Shown here: piece by piece, positions 10,694 through 14,876 of the stretch
How the letters are laid out: each line of letters begins with the position of its first letter
How positions within the stretch are numbered: position 1 is the stretch's first letter
Source of the DNA: Escherichia coli
Lineage (GTDB): Bacteria; Pseudomonadota; Gammaproteobacteria; Enterobacterales; Enterobacteriaceae
Strand: one strand, 5' to 3'
Length of the DNA stretch: 64,000 bases
Assembly: GCF_048403405.1 (NCBI RefSeq)
Contig: NZ_CP183129.1
Notes under the pieces: generated by a model
The model's input: the letters and a program-made list of their open reading frames with translations, nothing else
What the model was told of the DNA's origin: nothing
Databases searched by the model: none
Translations under genes and position numbers: made by a program

Positions 10694-12547
10694 ATGAGAC
10701 GATTTCTGACGACGCTGATGATACTCCTGGTCGTGCTGGTGGCCGGGTTATCTGCGTTAGTGTTGCTGGTGAATCCGAATGATTTCCGCGACTATATGGT
10801 CAAGCAAGTTGCTGCACGTAGCGGTTATCAATTGCAGCTCGACGGGCCACTGCGTTGGCACGTCTGGCCGCAGCTTAGTATCCTCTCCGGGCGAATGTCT
10901 CTCACCGCCCAGGGCGCGAGCCAGCCACTGGTTCGCGCCGACAACATGCGTCTGGACGTGGCGCTTTTACCACTACTGAGTCATCAACTGAGCGTTAAGC
11001 AGGTGATGCTAAAAGGGGCAGTGATCCAACTGACGCCGCAGACGGAAGCGGTGCGCAGTGAAGACGCTCCGGTTGCACCGCGCGACAATACCTTGCCGGA
11101 TCTGTCAGACGATCGCGGATGGTCGTTTGATATATCCAGTCTTAAGATGGCGGACAGCGTGCTGGTGTTCCAGCATGAAGATGACGAGCAGGTGACAATC
11201 CGCAATATCCGCCTGCAAATGGAACAAGATCCCCAACATCGTGGCTCATTTGAGTTCTCCGGGCGGGTTAATCGCGATCAGCGCGACCTCACGATATCCC
11301 TTAACGGTACGGTAGATGCTTCTGATTATCCGCATGATTTAACGGCGGCTATTGAACAAATTAACTGGCAGTTGCAGGGTGCAGATTTACCAAAACAAGG
11401 TATTCAGGGGCAGGGGAGTTTCCAGGCCCAGTGGCAGGAGTCACATAAACGCCTTTCATTTAACCAAATTAGTTTGACCGCCAATGACAGTACGCTGAGC
11501 GGGCAAGCACAGGTCACGCTGACAGAGAAACCGGAATGGCAGCTGAGACTGCAATTCCCGCAACTGAATCTTGACAACCTCATCCCGCTTAAAGAAACAG
11601 CGAACGGTGAAAACGGTGCCGCGCAGCAAGGGCAGAGCCAATCCACGTTGCCGCGCCCGGTCATTTCTTCGCGTATTGATGAACCGGCCTATCAGGGATT
11701 GCAAGGCTTTACGGCTGATATTTTGTTGCAGGCCAGTAACGTGCGCTGGCGCGGAATGAATTTTACAGATGTTTCCACGCAAATGACCAACAAGTCGGGT
11801 TTGCTGGAAATTACTCAACTGCAGGGCAAGCTTAACGGTGGACAGGTTTCGCTGCCGGGCACGCTGGACGCGACATCAATAAATCCGCGGATAAACTTCC
11901 AGCCACGGCTGGAAAACGTTGAGATTGGCACCATTCTGAAGGCGTTTAACTATCCGATTTCGTTGACTGGAAAGATGTCACTGGCTGGTGATTTCTCCGG
12001 TGCTGACATAGATGCCGACGCATTCCGCCACAACTGGCAAGGACAGGCACATGTCGAAATGACCGACACACGCATGGAAGGGATGAACTTCCAGCAGATG
12101 ATTCAGCAAGCGGTAGAACGTAATGGTGGTGATGTGAAGGCCGCTGAAAACTTCGATAACGTAACGCGTCTTGACCGCTTTACCACCGATTTGACGTTGA
12201 AGGATGGCGTCGTGACGTTAAACGACATGCAAGGTCAATCGCCAGTGCTGGCGCTGACAGGGGAAGGCATGTTGAATCTGGCAGATCAAACCTGCGACAC
12301 CCAGTTTGACATTCGTGTGATTGGTGGCTGGAACGGAGAAAGCAAACTGATTGATTTCCTCAAAGAAACGCCAGTACCGCTGCGGGTTTATGGCAACTGG
12401 CAGCAACTCAATTACAGCCTGCAAGTGGATCAGTTACTGCGCAAACATCTACAGGACGAAGCGAAACGTCGCCTGAATGACTGGGCCGAGCGGAATAAAG
12501 ATTCCCGCAATGGCAAAGATGTGAAGAAGTTGCTGGAGAAGATGTAA
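10694..12547 (+). CDS. asmA: Outer membrane assembly protein AsmA
   Basis: 617-aa ORF with N-terminal signal anchor; position between dcd and yegH. Confidence 0.85.
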   Translation: MRRFLTTLMILLVVLVAGLSALVLLVNPNDFRDYMVKQVAARSGYQLQLDGPLRWHVWPQLSILSGRMSLTAQGASQPLVRADNMRLDVALLPLLSHQLSVKQVMLKGAVIQLTPQTEAVRSEDAPVAPRDNTLPDLSDDRGWSFDISSLKMADSVLVFQHEDDEQVTIRNIRLQMEQDPQHRGSFEFSGRVNRDQRDLTISLNGTVDASDYPHDLTAAIEQINWQLQGADLPKQGIQGQGSFQAQWQESHKRLSFNQISLTANDSTLSGQAQVTLTEKPEWQLRLQFPQLNLDNLIPLKETANGENGAAQQGQSQSTLPRPVISSRIDEPAYQGLQGFTADILLQASNVRWRGMNFTDVSTQMTNKSGLLEITQLQGKLNGGQVSLPGTLDATSINPRINFQPRLENVEIGTILKAFNYPISLTGKMSLAGDFSGADIDADAFRHNWQGQAHVEMTDTRMEGMNFQQMIQQAVERNGGDVKAAENFDNVTRLDRFTTDLTLKDGVVTLNDMQGQSPVLALTGEGMLNLADQTCDTQFDIRVIGGWNGESKLIDFLKETPVPLRVYGNWQQLNYSLQVDQLLRKHLQDEAKRRLNDWAERNKDSRNGKDVKKLLEKM

Positions 12548-12558
12548 GACAAGTTATG

Positions 12559-12597
12559 CAGATGGCGGCGTCAATTTGTCGCCATCTGTATTTATAG
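12559..12597. terminator. Hairpin between convergent asmA and antitoxin gene
   Basis: cagatggcg / cgccatctg 9-bp inverted repeat with 12-nt loop, followed by tatttata. Confidence 0.4.
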
Positions 12598-12599
12598 CA

Positions 12600-12908
12600 C
12601 TAAGCAGCATGTGGATATTGAATTTCAATACGTTGAATATGCAATCCTGCATGAGCCATCATGGTGATCAATTTATCGATACTAAAGATCTGGATCTTAC
12701 CTCTGGCAAGTTCAGATATGCGAGGTTGAGTGACCCCTAAAGCAGACGCTGCCTGGGCCTGGCTAAACCCTTGTTGTTCAATCCAGTTATTAATGATCGT
12801 TACAAGTTCGGCACGGATCCGCATATTTTCCGCTTGTTCAGGGGTGTCACTCACCGCATCCCACACACTATCAAAGGTTTCAATTTTCATTTTTCCGCTC
12901 CTGAACAA
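12600..12908 (-). CDS. HTH XRE-family antitoxin (HigA-like)
   Basis: 102-aa ORF with HTH FSQAQAASALGVTQPRISELARGK; overlaps the 3' end of the upstream toxin ORF; alternative start at 12890 (MKIETF). Confidence 0.7.
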   Translation of the reverse strand: MFRSGKMKIETFDSVWDAVSDTPEQAENMRIRAELVTIINNWIEQQGFSQAQAASALGVTQPRISELARGKIQIFSIDKLITMMAHAGLHIQRIEIQYPHAA

Positions 12909-13218
12909 GTTCTTTATAGCGTCGTTTGGCTAAATCAACATCCGATTGACTGGTAGTCTGTGTTTTCTTTTGAAAACAATGCAATACGTAAACCGCTTCT
13001 TCAAATTTTGCGATATACATGACGCGATAGATCCCATCAGCATCGCGAGTACGAATCTCTCGCACACCAGGGCCGATAGTTGAAAAAGGTTTCCAGTCGT
13101 ATGGGTTTAACCCTTGTTGGATCCTGTCGAGTTGATAGCCAATTTCCTGTCGAGACGATTCTGGAAATGCGCGTAAATCGTCAAGACTGGTATCAAGAAA
13201 AGCCAGCTTTTTTCTCAT
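12880..13218 (-). CDS. RelE/ParE-superfamily toxin (HigB/Gp49-like)
   Basis: 112-aa basic protein directly upstream of and overlapping an XRE antitoxin (toxin-first HigBA-type order); AGGA ribosome-binding site and TATAAT -10 upstream. Confidence 0.6.
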   Translation of the reverse strand: MRKKLAFLDTSLDDLRAFPESSRQEIGYQLDRIQQGLNPYDWKPFSTIGPGVREIRTRDADGIYRVMYIAKFEEAVYVLHCFQKKTQTTSQSDVDLAKRRYKELVQERKNEN

Positions 13219-13253
13219 TACTCCATCCTTAGATTATACTAAATTTTGTATAA

Positions 13254-13286
13254 ATCAAATGCGCAGTTTGAACCTGCGCATTTGAT
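13254..13286. promoter_or_regulatory. Perfect 13-bp inverted repeat (candidate TA operator and/or yegH terminator)
   Basis: atcaaatgcgcag-tttgaac-ctgcgcatttgat, just upstream of the toxin -10 (TATAAT) and just downstream of the yegH stop. Confidence 0.45.
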
Positions 13287-13292
13287 GTTTTA

Positions 13293-14876
13293 TCACACTT
13301 CGTACTCCATCTCGCCATCCTTACGTAGCGGAATAATTTGCACCTTCTGCACGCGATGGCTTTCCACCTGCAACGTTTTAAGCAAATAATCCCCCACCTG
13401 AACTTCTTCGCCAGGTTTTGGAATACGCTGCAAATATTCCATCAATAGCCCGGCAATGGTGTGATATTCACGTTTTTCATCCAGCGGCAGCGGCACATAT
13501 TGCACCAGATCTTCCAGCGGCATATGACCATTCGCCGTCCAGGAACCGTCGGCATTCTTCTGAATATCATGGCGGGCGTCGATCTCTTCCACTTCATTCG
13601 GTAAGTTACCGGCAATGGTTTCTGTGACGTCACTTAATGTCACAATCCCTTCCACCGAGCCAAACTCATCCACTACAAAAGCAAAGTGTGTGCGGGCATT
13701 ACGGAACTGCTCCAGGGCAGGTAACAACGGCAAGGTTTCCGGGAACACCAGCGGCTGGCGAATCAACACCCGCAGGTTGAGCGGTTCGCCGCGCAGTGAC
13801 TGTTGTAGCAGGTCGATAACGTGAACAACACCGAGCAAATCTTCCGCGTCATCGCCATCAGTAACCACCAGTCGCGTGTGCTGATTTCGCTCCAGCAACT
13901 GGCGGATCTCGTCTTCCGGCGCGTTGAGATCGATATGCTCAATATCGTGGCGCGACGTCATAATGCTGCTGACGGTACGCTGGTTAAGATTAAGTACCCG
14001 CTCAATCATCCGCCGTTCCTGCGGATTAAAGATTTGCTGGTTACCATGATCCACCAGCATAGACGCGGTTTCGGCGTCCAGTTCCGCATCTTCTTTTTGC
14101 CCGCTAAGCAGGCGCATTACCGCTTCGGTAGTCCGCTGGCGCAGCGTCTGGTTAGCGGAAAGAAAACGTCGCCGGTTAAAGATAGCCAACTGATTGAGCG
14201 CCTCGATCATCACCGAGAAACCAATAGCAGCGTACAGGTAGCCTTTCGGAATGACGAAGCCGAAACCTTCTGCCACCAGGCTAAAGCCAATCATCAACAG
14301 GAAGCTTAAGCAGAGAATAACGATCGTCGGGTGACTGTTAACAAATTGCGTTAACGGCTTGCTGGCCATCAACATCAGGCTGATAGCGATAACGACGGCG
14401 GCCATCATGACCAGTAAATGGTCGACCATCCCGACGGCGGTAATCACCGAGTCGAGTGAGAAGATGGCGTCCAGTACCACAATTTGTGTCACCACCCCCC
14501 AGAACTTCGCACCTTTGCGTTGTGTGGGGTTATTGCTGTCTTTCCCCTCCAGCCGTTCGTTCAGCTCCATCGTGGCTTTGAACAGCAGGAAGAAACCACC
14601 AAACAGCATGATTAAATCGCGGGCGCTAAAGGTAAACGAGCGGAAGCTGAACAGCGGTTGAGTCAGGGTGACCAGCCAGGAGATTGACGCCAGCAGTAAC
14701 AGGCGCATTAACATCGCCAGCAGCAGCCCGGTAACCCGTGCGCGGTCGCGCTGCTTCGGCGGTAGTTTTTCGGCGAGGATGGCAATAAAGACCAGGTTAT
14801 CAATGCCGAGGACCAGTTCGATCACAATCAGCGTGATTAACCCGGCCCAGATAGACGGATCGGCAATCCATTCCAT
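13293..14876 (-). CDS. yegH: TerC/CBS/CorC-domain inner membrane protein
   Basis: ORF 13293..14942; likely start [10 protein letters not shown] at 14876 (527 aa); TerC-like TM region plus CBS pair. Confidence 0.85.

What the first reader, a model, noticed from the sequence alone, without database searches (positions are those of the whole stretch)
13219..13292. Perfect 13-bp inverted repeat over the TA promoter, abutting the yegH stop
atcaaatgcgcag-tttgaac-ctgcgcatttgat lies immediately upstream of a near-consensus -10 (TATAAT on the minus strand, about 29 nt before the toxin ATG, with an AGGA ribosome-binding site). It could serve as the antitoxin operator for autoregulation, as the yegH terminator, or as both. 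Sharing 74 bp between a terminator and a promoter/operator would couple TA expression to yegH read-through.
Basis: seen in the sequence. Interest (0 to 1): 0.4.

Follow-up and report, generated by a model that had tools for sequence, protein, structure and literature searches.

The report
yegH terminator hairpin beside toxin-antitoxin promoter
The perfect 13-bp inverted repeat is real, but it looks like an ordinary transcription-terminator hairpin ending the yegH gene; the likely binding site for the antitoxin repressor is a different, widely conserved palindrome right next to it.

Summary
The window is E. coli. A Gp49/RelE-ParE toxin (12880..13218, -) and an HTH_37 antitoxin (12600..12890, -) fill the spacer between the convergent genes asmA and yegH. 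The inverted repeat (IR) is exactly as described: arms 13254-13266 and 13274-13286, 7-nt loop, RNA dG -20 kcal/mol. It is one of only two such hairpins in 64 kb.

It is probably not the antitoxin operator. In 74 of 80 homologous toxin-antitoxin (TA) loci from other genera, the toxin gene is preceded by a palindrome TATAC-N8-GTATA. Its right half forms the -10, and the ATG usually lies 5-8 nt after the -10 (leaderless). The window has this motif exactly at 13252..13235, one base from the IR. No homologous locus carries the IR, and only 2 of 72 have any terminator-like hairpin upstream.

The IR has the shape of a bidirectional intrinsic terminator: A-tract, GC core, T-tract, starting 6 nt after the yegH stop. 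Related genera without the TA also have hairpins in this spacer. Its 3' arm fills the slot where homologues have a -35 (TTGCnn), so the E. coli promoter has a consensus -10 but no correctly spaced -35.

No transcript-end data could be obtained. The feature is ordinary and of low interest.

The parts
13293..14876 (-). yegH (TerC/CBS/CorC membrane protein); stop codon TGA at 13295..13293
   Evidence: ORF list. RefSeq annotation of the 100%-identical strain CLSC36. Pfam families on identical loci.
13254..13286 (-). The finding: a perfect 13-bp inverted repeat with a 7-nt loop. Read as the yegH intrinsic-terminator hairpin. In yegH sense the 5' arm is 13286..13274, the loop 13273..13267 and the 3' arm 13266..13254. 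The shape is bidirectional: A-tract, GCGCAG core, T-tract.
   Evidence: dG -20, z -6.9; called terminator-like on the + strand; rarity; sub-stems with U-rich tails on the minus strand.
13241..13260 (-). U-rich tract after the GC core on the yegH-sense RNA (AUUUGAUUUAUACAAAAUUU). yegH 3' ends are predicted here. It overlaps the TA operator.
   Evidence: Read from the sequence. Tail counts. No transcript 3'-end data were obtained.
13255..13261 (-). The -35 slot of the TA promoter, occupied by the IR 3' arm. CATTTG at spacer 17 matches 0 of 6, ATTTGA at spacer 16 matches 2 of 6, and TTGATT matches 4 of 6 but only at spacer 14.
   Evidence: Sequence. Homologues carry TTGCnn starting 9 nt upstream of the palindrome; in E. 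coli the TTG starts 6 nt upstream. The promoter scan found no minus-strand hit.
13235..13252 (-). TATACAAAATTTAGTATA, the family-wide palindrome TATAC-N8-GTATA. This is the proposed antitoxin operator. Extended form TTATAC..GTATAA is 13253..13234.
   Evidence: Exact motif in the window. Present in 74 of 80 homologous loci at 2 mismatches or fewer. Background elsewhere in the same loci: 0 exact, 1 at one mismatch and 17 at two mismatches in 238,917 positions. Information content. Covariation with antitoxin divergence.
13233..13238 (-). -10 hexamer TATAAT, formed by the right half of the palindrome
   Evidence: Sequence. The same arrangement is seen in homologues.
13219..13230 (-). Short leader region. 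AAGGA is at 13230..13226 and GGAG at 13224..13221. The predicted transcription start is near 13226. A two-codon ATG GAG TAA (13226..13218) overlaps the toxin ATG.
   Evidence: Sequence. The start site is inferred from the -10 position and from the leaderless geometry of homologues. It has not been measured.
12880..13218 (-). Toxin gene, 112 aa, Gp49 family (RelE/ParE superfamily)
   Evidence: Pfam PF05973, E = 1.3e-29. RefSeq annotation.
12600..12890 (-). Antitoxin gene, 96 aa, HTH_37/XRE helix-turn-helix. It has its own AGGAG 7 nt before the ATG.
   Evidence: Pfam PF13744, E = 4.4e-22. An antitoxin homologue lies directly downstream of the toxin in 80 of 80 loci. Shine-Dalgarno context.
12556..12591 (+). 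Hairpin at the asmA side of the cassette (GCAGATGGCG..CGCCATCTG, then TATTTAT). Probably the asmA terminator.
   Evidence: I4; -25.4 kcal/mol, z -5.5 on the + strand.
12547..13291 (.). The 745-bp allele-specific segment that carries both hairpins and the TA pair. Homology to TA-less E. coli alleles stops at the asmA stop codon and at the yegH stop codon.

Best explanation
The 13-bp inverted repeat is the Rho-independent terminator hairpin of yegH in the E. coli strains that carry this TA allele. Its shape is bidirectional. It is not the antitoxin operator.

Proposed mechanism. Steps 1 and 3 are inferred from sequence and comparison; none has been measured.
1. RNA polymerase leaving yegH transcribes the hairpin 6 nt after the stop codon. 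The GC core (GCGCAG/CUGCGC) with its A-U extensions folds, and transcripts end in the U-rich stretch AUUUGAUUUAU (about 13253..13241).
2. This shields the toxin gene from yegH read-through.
3. The TA operon starts from its own promoter immediately downstream. That promoter has a consensus -10 (TATAAT, 13238..13233) embedded in the palindrome TATAC-N8-GTATA (13252..13235). The helix-turn-helix antitoxin, alone or with toxin, most likely binds this palindrome to repress its own operon.
4. The hairpin's 3' arm sits where homologous loci have their -35. The E. coli promoter is therefore -10-only and probably weak.
5. On the + strand, the same hairpin followed by GTTTTAT would stop antisense transcripts before they enter yegH.
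For: - Hairpin strength and rarity.
- Terminator rule: met on the + strand by the scan tool. On the yegH-sense strand it is met with 7-9 bp sub-stems (dG -11.5 to -13.5; 5-6 U in the next 8 nt).
- Position: 6 nt after the yegH stop.
- Context: TA-less E. coli alleles and four related genera always have hairpins in the yegH-asmA spacer. These are REP-like elements or, in Kluyvera, a classic bidirectional terminator.
- Copy number: the IR is single-copy.
- Similar hairpins elsewhere: unrelated metagenome hits to AAATGCGCAG-N7-CTGCGCATTT mostly sit between A-runs and T-runs, like generic terminators.
- Operator assigned elsewhere: TATAC-N8-GTATA occurs upstream of the toxin in 74 of 80 homologous loci, against about 0 expected. 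Its 18 positions carry 0.7-2.0 bits each.
- Covariation: three loci with a permuted palindrome have the most divergent antitoxins, at 33-36% identity against at least 39.6% in motif-bearing loci.
- IR not part of the family promoter: only 2 of 72 homologous loci have any terminator-like hairpin within 160 nt upstream, and none abuts the motif.
- Published biology: Gp49-type TA operons are toxin-first and are repressed by their own HTH antitoxin at the promoter (PMC5906591).
Against: - No transcript 3'-end or 5'-end data were available for a TA-carrying strain.
- After the full 13-bp stem, the yegH-sense tail is only UUAUACAA (3 U of 8), and the U-tract is interrupted by G and A. Termination may therefore be partial.
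- The scan tool calls the terminator only on the + strand.
- Within E. coli the IR and the TA are in complete linkage (792 genomes each). Population data therefore cannot separate a yegH function from a TA function.
- Arm variants are few and mixed: one G.U-preserving change and two pair-breaking changes.
- Antitoxin binding was not tested, so a second weak operator in the IR cannot be excluded.
Confidence: 0.65

Rival explanations
1. Dual-function element. The hairpin is a leaky terminator and also shapes TA expression. Its 3' arm replaces the -35, so the TA promoter is weak and much TA mRNA comes from yegH read-through. Read-through transcripts, unlike promoter-initiated ones, would carry the AAGGA ribosome-binding site 7 nt before the toxin ATG. 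That could shift the toxin:antitoxin ratio.
For: There is no correctly spaced -35, whereas homologues have TTGCnn. The U-tract is imperfect. The predicted promoter start near 13226 excludes AAGGA. The antitoxin has its own AGGAG.
Against: This is inference only. A consensus TATAAT can drive transcription without a good -35. No expression or transcript-end data were found. A -20 kcal/mol hairpin may terminate efficiently.
Confidence: 0.17
2. The IR is an antitoxin (or toxin-antitoxin complex) operator, as the sole site or as a second site. It would repress by covering the -35 region.
For: It is a perfect palindrome overlapping the -35 slot. Type II antitoxins bind palindromes at their promoters (PMC5906591, PMC7157771). 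The IR and the TA are always linked in E. coli.
Against: The IR is absent upstream of all 80 homologous TA loci, including the closest (Pantoea 71%, Cedecea 65%), while a different palindrome is conserved there. The IR half-site ATCAAATGCGCAG does not resemble TATACAAAA. The IR stays intact in strains whose toxin gene is frameshifted or truncated, though this is only weak evidence.
Confidence: 0.07
3. The hairpin is a 3'-end stabiliser of yegH mRNA that blocks 3' exonucleases, as REP elements do in other alleles. It would not be a true termination site. Transcription would end elsewhere or by Rho.
For: REP elements occupy the same position in TA-less alleles. The U-tract is weak after the full stem.
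Against: The A-tract/GC-core/T-tract symmetry is typical of intrinsic terminators. There is no REP consensus and the IR is single-copy.
Confidence: 0.08
4. The hairpin is a relic carried in with the cassette, for example the terminator of an upstream gene in a donor genome. It would have no selected role here.
For: The IR lies inside the 745-bp allele-specific segment. Its origin is unknown.
Against: It sits exactly where yegH needs a 3' end. The sequence is identical in 710 of 793 records. No donor context was found in plasmids, phages or metagenomes.
Confidence: 0.03

Closest known systems
Bidirectional Rho-independent terminators between or after genes. Examples seen here: the Kluyvera yegH/asmA spacer hairpin AAAAAACCGGCAGCG..CGCTGCCGGTTTTTTT and the window's own hairpin at 60170-60202.
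   Same: A GC-rich stem with an A-tract on the 5' side and a T-tract on the 3' side, so it reads as a terminator on both strands. It is placed a few bases after a stop codon. It has a strong fold (-20 kcal/mol).
   Different: Only 6 of the 13 pairs are G-C. The U-tract is interrupted (AUUUGAUUUAU). The next gene is co-directional, and its operator and -10 lie inside the terminator tail. Termination has not been measured.
HigA/XRE-type antitoxin operators in toxin-first TA operons. Examples: Proteus vulgaris higBA (from general knowledge) and Acinetobacter baumannii higBA2, which has a Gp49-type toxin (PMC5906591).
   Same: A palindrome overlapping core promoter elements of a toxin-first operon that encodes an HTH antitoxin.
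   Different: The palindrome that behaves this way here is TATAC-N8-GTATA at 13252..13235, not the 13-bp IR. The IR is not conserved with the antitoxin. No binding data exist for this subfamily.
REP (repetitive extragenic palindromic) elements, which fill the asmA-yegH spacer in other E. coli alleles such as CFT073.
   Same: A hairpin placed directly after the yegH and asmA stop codons.
   Different: The IR is single-copy in the genome. It lacks the REP sequence (GCCTGATAAGACGCG...) seen.
Gp49 (PF05973) / HTH_37 (PF13744) toxin-antitoxin pairs, as catalogued in Tn3-family transposons (PMC7157771).
   Same: The two genes next to the IR match these Pfam families and share the toxin-first order.
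   Different: Here the pair is a fixed chromosomal cassette between asmA and yegH, with no transposon genes or terminal repeats.

Membership tests
Intrinsic (Rho-independent) terminator | Stable GC-containing stem-loop | tested here: met
   13-bp perfect stem with 6 G-C pairs and a 7-nt loop; dG -20.0 kcal/mol on the minus strand and -18.5 on the plus strand; z -6.9.
Intrinsic (Rho-independent) terminator | U-rich tract immediately 3' of the stem | tested here: inconclusive
   On the + strand the rule is met: GTTTTATC has 5 T of 8. On the yegH-sense strand there are 3 U of 8 after the full stem, but 5-6 of 8 after 7-9 bp sub-stems.
Intrinsic (Rho-independent) terminator | Lies just downstream of a gene end | tested here: met
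   Starts 6 nt after the yegH stop codon.
Intrinsic (Rho-independent) terminator | Transcript 3' ends map to the U-tract | not testable with these tools
   No Term-seq data were held. The EDL933 supplement files were cut and the Sakai paper has no supplements held.
Type II antitoxin operator | Palindrome overlapping the operon's core promoter | tested here: inconclusive
   The IR covers only the -35 slot, which has no -35-like hexamer at a proper spacing. The adjacent palindrome covers the spacer and the -10.
Type II antitoxin operator | Site is conserved together with the antitoxin across homologous loci | tested here: not met
   The IR is absent from all 80 homologous loci. TATAC-N8-GTATA is present in 74 of 80. 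The palindrome variant tracks antitoxin divergence.
Type II antitoxin operator | Antitoxin binds the site | not testable with these tools
   Needs EMSA or footprinting.
Sigma-70 promoter (for the TA operon) | -10 hexamer | tested here: met
   TATAAT at 13238..13233, in the same position relative to the palindrome as in homologues.
Sigma-70 promoter (for the TA operon) | -35 hexamer at 16-18 bp | tested here: not met
   0-2 of 6 matches at spacers 16-18. TTGATT matches only at spacer 14. No minus-strand call by the scan.
Sigma-70 promoter (for the TA operon) | Mapped transcription start | not testable with these tools
   The held parts of the EDL933 Cappable-seq tables do not cover positions 29031xx-29032xx.
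REP or other dispersed repeat | Many copies per genome with a shared consensus | tested here: not met
   One locus per genome in 792 genomes (the second 'place' is the palindrome matching itself).
Mobile-element end (terminal inverted repeat or target duplication) | Matching repeats at both ends of the 745-bp segment | tested here: not met
   No direct or inverted match of 8 nt or more between the two ends.
Known RNA family (Rfam) | Covariance-model match above the gathering score | tested here: not met
   Only STnc40 at 20.6 bits against a threshold of 45, E = 0.99.

The most novel reading that the evidence does not exclude
The hairpin is a regulatory junction and not only an insulator. When the TA cassette joined the resident yegH/asmA terminator exactly at the operator edge (13253/13254), it lost its native -35. 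TA expression in E. coli then depends partly on terminator leak from yegH. This would give two mRNA forms. A short-leader form from the TA promoter would translate toxin poorly. A read-through form carrying AAGGA would translate toxin well. The toxin:antitoxin ratio would then follow yegH transcription.
Probability: 0.15. Interest if true: 0.45.

Novelty: new member of a known kind. Interest (0 to 1): 0.18.

Why it matters
For the hairpin itself, very little: it is a normal way to end a gene and to shield the next one.

There are two modest points of value.
- Anyone testing autoregulation of this E. coli TA pair (present in 792 of 5,426 complete genomes, including O157:H7 and the type strain) should use 13234..13253 as the probe, not 13254..13286.
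- The comparison gives a clear, testable operator and promoter model for a widespread Gp49/HTH_37 subfamily. The model is an 18-bp palindrome that contains the -10, with a mostly leaderless toxin gene. I did not find this described in the searchable papers.

Tried and rejected
- **Published transcript maps.** The EDL933 Cappable-seq supplements (PMC10469882) are truncated, and the held parts contain no entry for positions 29031xx-29032xx or for loci RS15355/RS15360. The Sakai Term-seq paper has no supplements held. The EDL933 11-condition RNA-seq tables have no yegH or asmA rows held. This gives no information either way.
- **Literature on the locus.** Nothing for yegH + asmA + toxin-antitoxin, nor for guessed old locus tags. 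The palindrome sequence appears in no relevant paper.
- **Independent contexts for the IR.** The plasmid hits are chromosomal fragments carrying asmA and dcd. The exact toxin protein occurs only in the wza-yegH-TA-asmA-dcd context. A metagenome scan for the IR core gave 35 loci, of which only two are this E. coli locus.
- **Dispersed repeat.** Rejected; the IR is single-copy.
- **Integron attC site.** Rejected on reading the sequence: GTTCAAA lies in the loop and does not fit the GTTRRRY core at the element ends. The attC consensus is from my own knowledge.
- **Transposon or MITE ends.** Rejected.
- **Known RNA family.** Rejected.
- **Compensatory changes in the stem.** Too little variation to use. 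710 of 793 records are identical, and the few variants are mixed.
- **Ancestral yegH terminator.** Kluyvera, Enterobacter, Pseudescherichia and Yokenella have other hairpins, and none resembles the IR.
- **Solved structures.** The antitoxin matches only uncharacterised structural-genomics HTH proteins (2a6c, 2o38). The toxin matches none by sequence.

Full report
**Where we are.** The window is E. coli. The stretch 12480-13400 is 100% identical to strain O1:H42 CLSC36.
- asmA runs 10694..12547 on the + strand.
- On the minus strand lie yegH (RefSeq start; 13293..14876), a 112-aa toxin (12880..13218) and a 96-aa antitoxin (12600..12890).
- The toxin matches Pfam Gp49 (PF05973, E = 1.3e-29).
- The antitoxin matches HTH_37 (PF13744, E = 4.4e-22).
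- Published work describes this as a toxin-first, HigBA-like pair of the RelE/ParE superfamily, repressed by its own antitoxin (PMC5906591, PMC7157771).

**The observation.** The inverted repeat (IR) is exactly as reported.
- Its arms are 13254-13266 and 13274-13286. It has 13 perfect pairs and a 7-nt loop.
- It starts 6 nt after the yegH stop codon.
- As RNA it folds at -20.0 kcal/mol (z = -6.9) in yegH sense and at -18.5 in the other sense.
- Only two loci in the 64-kb window have a perfect hairpin of this size. The other, at 60170-60202, is a textbook AAAGCCCCCGG..CCGGGGGCTTT terminator. Thirty Markov simulations gave none.
- TATAAT (13238..13233) and AGGA (13229..13226) are present on the minus strand.
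- One stated number is wrong. The -10 ends 14 nt before the toxin ATG and begins 20 nt before it, not about 29 nt.
- The two-hexamer promoter scan finds nothing on the minus strand, because no -35-like hexamer lies at 16-18 bp.

**The locus is one allele of a variable spacer.** The toxin-antitoxin (TA) pair is present in 792 of 5,426 complete E. coli genomes.
- Other strains have unrelated fillers between asmA and yegH. CFT073 has a 67-bp spacer made of a REP hairpin. Other alleles have spacers of 273, 292 and 451 bp that begin with the same REP.
- Homology to the TA allele stops at the third base of the asmA stop codon and at the yegH stop codon. The IR therefore belongs to a 745-bp allele-specific segment (12547..13291).
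- The IR occurs once per genome, and only in the 792 TA-carrying genomes.
- All "plasmid" hits are chromosomal fragments carrying asmA and dcd.
- The exact toxin protein was found only in the wza-yegH-TA-asmA-dcd context.
- No terminal repeats flank the segment.

**What the TA family shows.** I fetched 80 loci from other species that encode toxins 57-71% identical to this one. They span alpha-, beta- and gamma-proteobacteria and Acidobacteria.
- All 80 have the antitoxin directly downstream of the toxin.
- In 74 of 80, a palindrome TATAC-N8-GTATA lies within 80 nt upstream of the toxin start. It is exact in 21 loci, has one mismatch in 38 and two mismatches in 15.
- Elsewhere in the same loci, 238,917 positions gave 0 exact hits and 1 hit at one mismatch.
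- Anchored on the motif, the consensus is cTTgcc.a..TATACAAAATTTTGTATAaT......atg, with 0.7-2.0 bits at each of the 18 motif positions.
- The right half of the motif plus two bases forms the -10. A TTG usually starts 9 nt upstream of the motif, which gives a -35 at a 16-18 bp spacing.
- The start codon usually lies 7-10 nt after the motif, which is 5-8 nt after the -10. Most of these toxin genes should therefore be leaderless.
- Three loci carry a permuted palindrome (GTATAAAATTTTATAC). They have the most divergent antitoxins, at 33-36% identity against 39.6% or more in motif-bearing loci. Their toxins are no more divergent than the others.
- This pattern is what an antitoxin operator should look like.

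**The window carries this motif next to the IR.** TATACAAAATTTAGTATA lies at 13252..13235 with no mismatch in the ten specified positions. It is one base from the end of the IR.

**The IR is not part of that conserved design.**
- It is absent upstream of every homologous locus, including the closest (Pantoea 71%, Cedecea 65%).
- Its half-site is unrelated to the family palindrome.
- Only 2 of 72 homologous loci have any terminator-like hairpin within 160 nt upstream, and none abuts the motif.
- In E. coli the IR 3' arm occupies the -35 slot. The hexamers there match TTGACA at 0 of 6 (spacer 17) and 2 of 6 (spacer 16). The only TTG starts 6 nt upstream of the motif instead of 9, which gives a 14-bp spacer.

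**Why a terminator.** The IR has a GC core (GCGCAG/CTGCGC) flanked by ATCAAAT on one side and ATTTGAT on the other. This is the A-tract/stem/T-tract symmetry of a bidirectional intrinsic terminator.
- The scan tool calls it on the + strand, with tail GTTTTATC.
- On the yegH-sense strand the full stem leaves a poor tail (UUAUACAA). Sub-stems of 7-9 bp (-11.5 to -13.5 kcal/mol) are followed by 5-6 U in 8 nt. This is how such terminators are normally read, because the A-tract pairs with the U-tract.
- Kluyvera, Enterobacter, Pseudescherichia and Yokenella lack the TA and have yegH and asmA convergent, with 34-190 bp between them. Every one of these spacers holds hairpins. In Kluyvera it is a classic AAAAAACCGGCAGCG..CGCTGCCGGTTTTTTT terminator.
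- A metagenome scan for AAATGCGCAG-N7-CTGCGCATTT returned 35 loci. Two are this E. coli locus. Most of the others are unrelated hairpins between A-runs and T-runs.
- A second hairpin at 12556-12591 (-25.4 kcal/mol, followed by TATTTAT) sits just after asmA. It probably ends that gene.

**Variation within E. coli is uninformative.** The 41 nt around the IR are identical in 710 of 793 records. The variants I read are:
- a loop change (cS33a);
- a C-to-U change that keeps a G.U pair on the yegH-sense RNA (ES4, SL112);
- a G-to-A change that breaks a pair (O157 TR01);
- an A-to-C change near the stem base (EC7).

The IR is intact in strains whose toxin gene is frameshifted or truncated. This is weakly in line with a role that does not depend on the TA.

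**Best reading.** The IR ends yegH transcription and shields the TA operon. The TA operon has its own -10-only promoter, and its operator is the adjacent palindrome.
- Shown directly: the sequence features and the cross-species conservation.
- Inferred only: termination, the start site near 13226 and antitoxin binding.

I could not obtain any transcript-end data for a TA-carrying strain. Rfam gives nothing. My confidence is about 0.65 that the IR is primarily a terminator. It is higher, about 0.85, that the IR is not the family operator.

**What remains open.** The -35 is displaced and the U-tract is imperfect, so some TA transcription may come from yegH read-through.
- Read-through mRNA would carry the AAGGA site 7 nt before the toxin ATG. 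Promoter-initiated mRNA would not.
- A possible history is that the TA joined a resident yegH/asmA terminator right at the operator edge and lost its own -35. No E. coli genome has the IR without the TA, so this cannot be checked here.

**Verdict.** This is an ordinary feature of a known kind. The coupling idea is untested.

Noticed in passing
window 13235..13252 (minus strand); loci L007-L086: An 18-bp palindrome TATACAAAATTTTGTATA that contains the -10 precedes the toxin gene in 74 of 80 homologous Gp49/HTH_37 loci across several phyla. The ATG usually lies 5-8 nt after the -10, so the toxin gene is probably leaderless. I did not find this described in the searchable papers.
   Followed up: yes
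window 13218..13226 (minus strand): A two-codon ORF, ATG GAG TAA, starts exactly where homologues have their leaderless ATG (6 nt after TATAAT). Its stop overlaps the toxin start (TAATG). Cedecea (L009) has ATG GAG TGA TA ATG, but there it lies too close to the -10 to be in the transcript. It could be a re-initiation device or only a scar.
   Followed up: partly
window 12547..13291 compared with L002-L006: The asmA-yegH spacer is a hotspot with at least five alleles: 67 bp (REP only, CFT073), 273, 292 and 451 bp fillers, and the 745-bp TA cassette. Strain N-01 (L006) is a hybrid in which the 5' half of the toxin gene, the promoter and the IR are replaced by the right-hand part of the 451-bp filler.
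   Followed up: partly
L087, L088, L131, L092 (strains cS33a, 51008369SK1, GTEN_24, W409): The toxin gene is frameshifted or truncated in several strains, while the IR and the promoter region are kept.
   Followed up: no
window 12556..12591: A second strong hairpin (-25.4 kcal/mol on the + strand, then TATTTAT) lies 9 nt after the asmA stop and just after the antitoxin stop. It is probably the asmA terminator, so the TA pair is bracketed by two hairpins.
   Followed up: partly
window 13212..13240 (+ strand): Because the operator is palindromic, a promoter-like site also appears on the + strand (TTCTCA-17-TATACT, 9 of 12 matches). A transcript from it would run straight into the IR and its GTTTTAT tail. 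The number of promoter-like hits in the region is no higher than in shuffles.
   Followed up: no
window 60170..60202: The only other perfect hairpin of 13 bp or more in the window: AAAGCCCCCGGAAG-GTGAT-CTTCCGGGGGCTTT. It looks like a classic bidirectional terminator.
   Followed up: no
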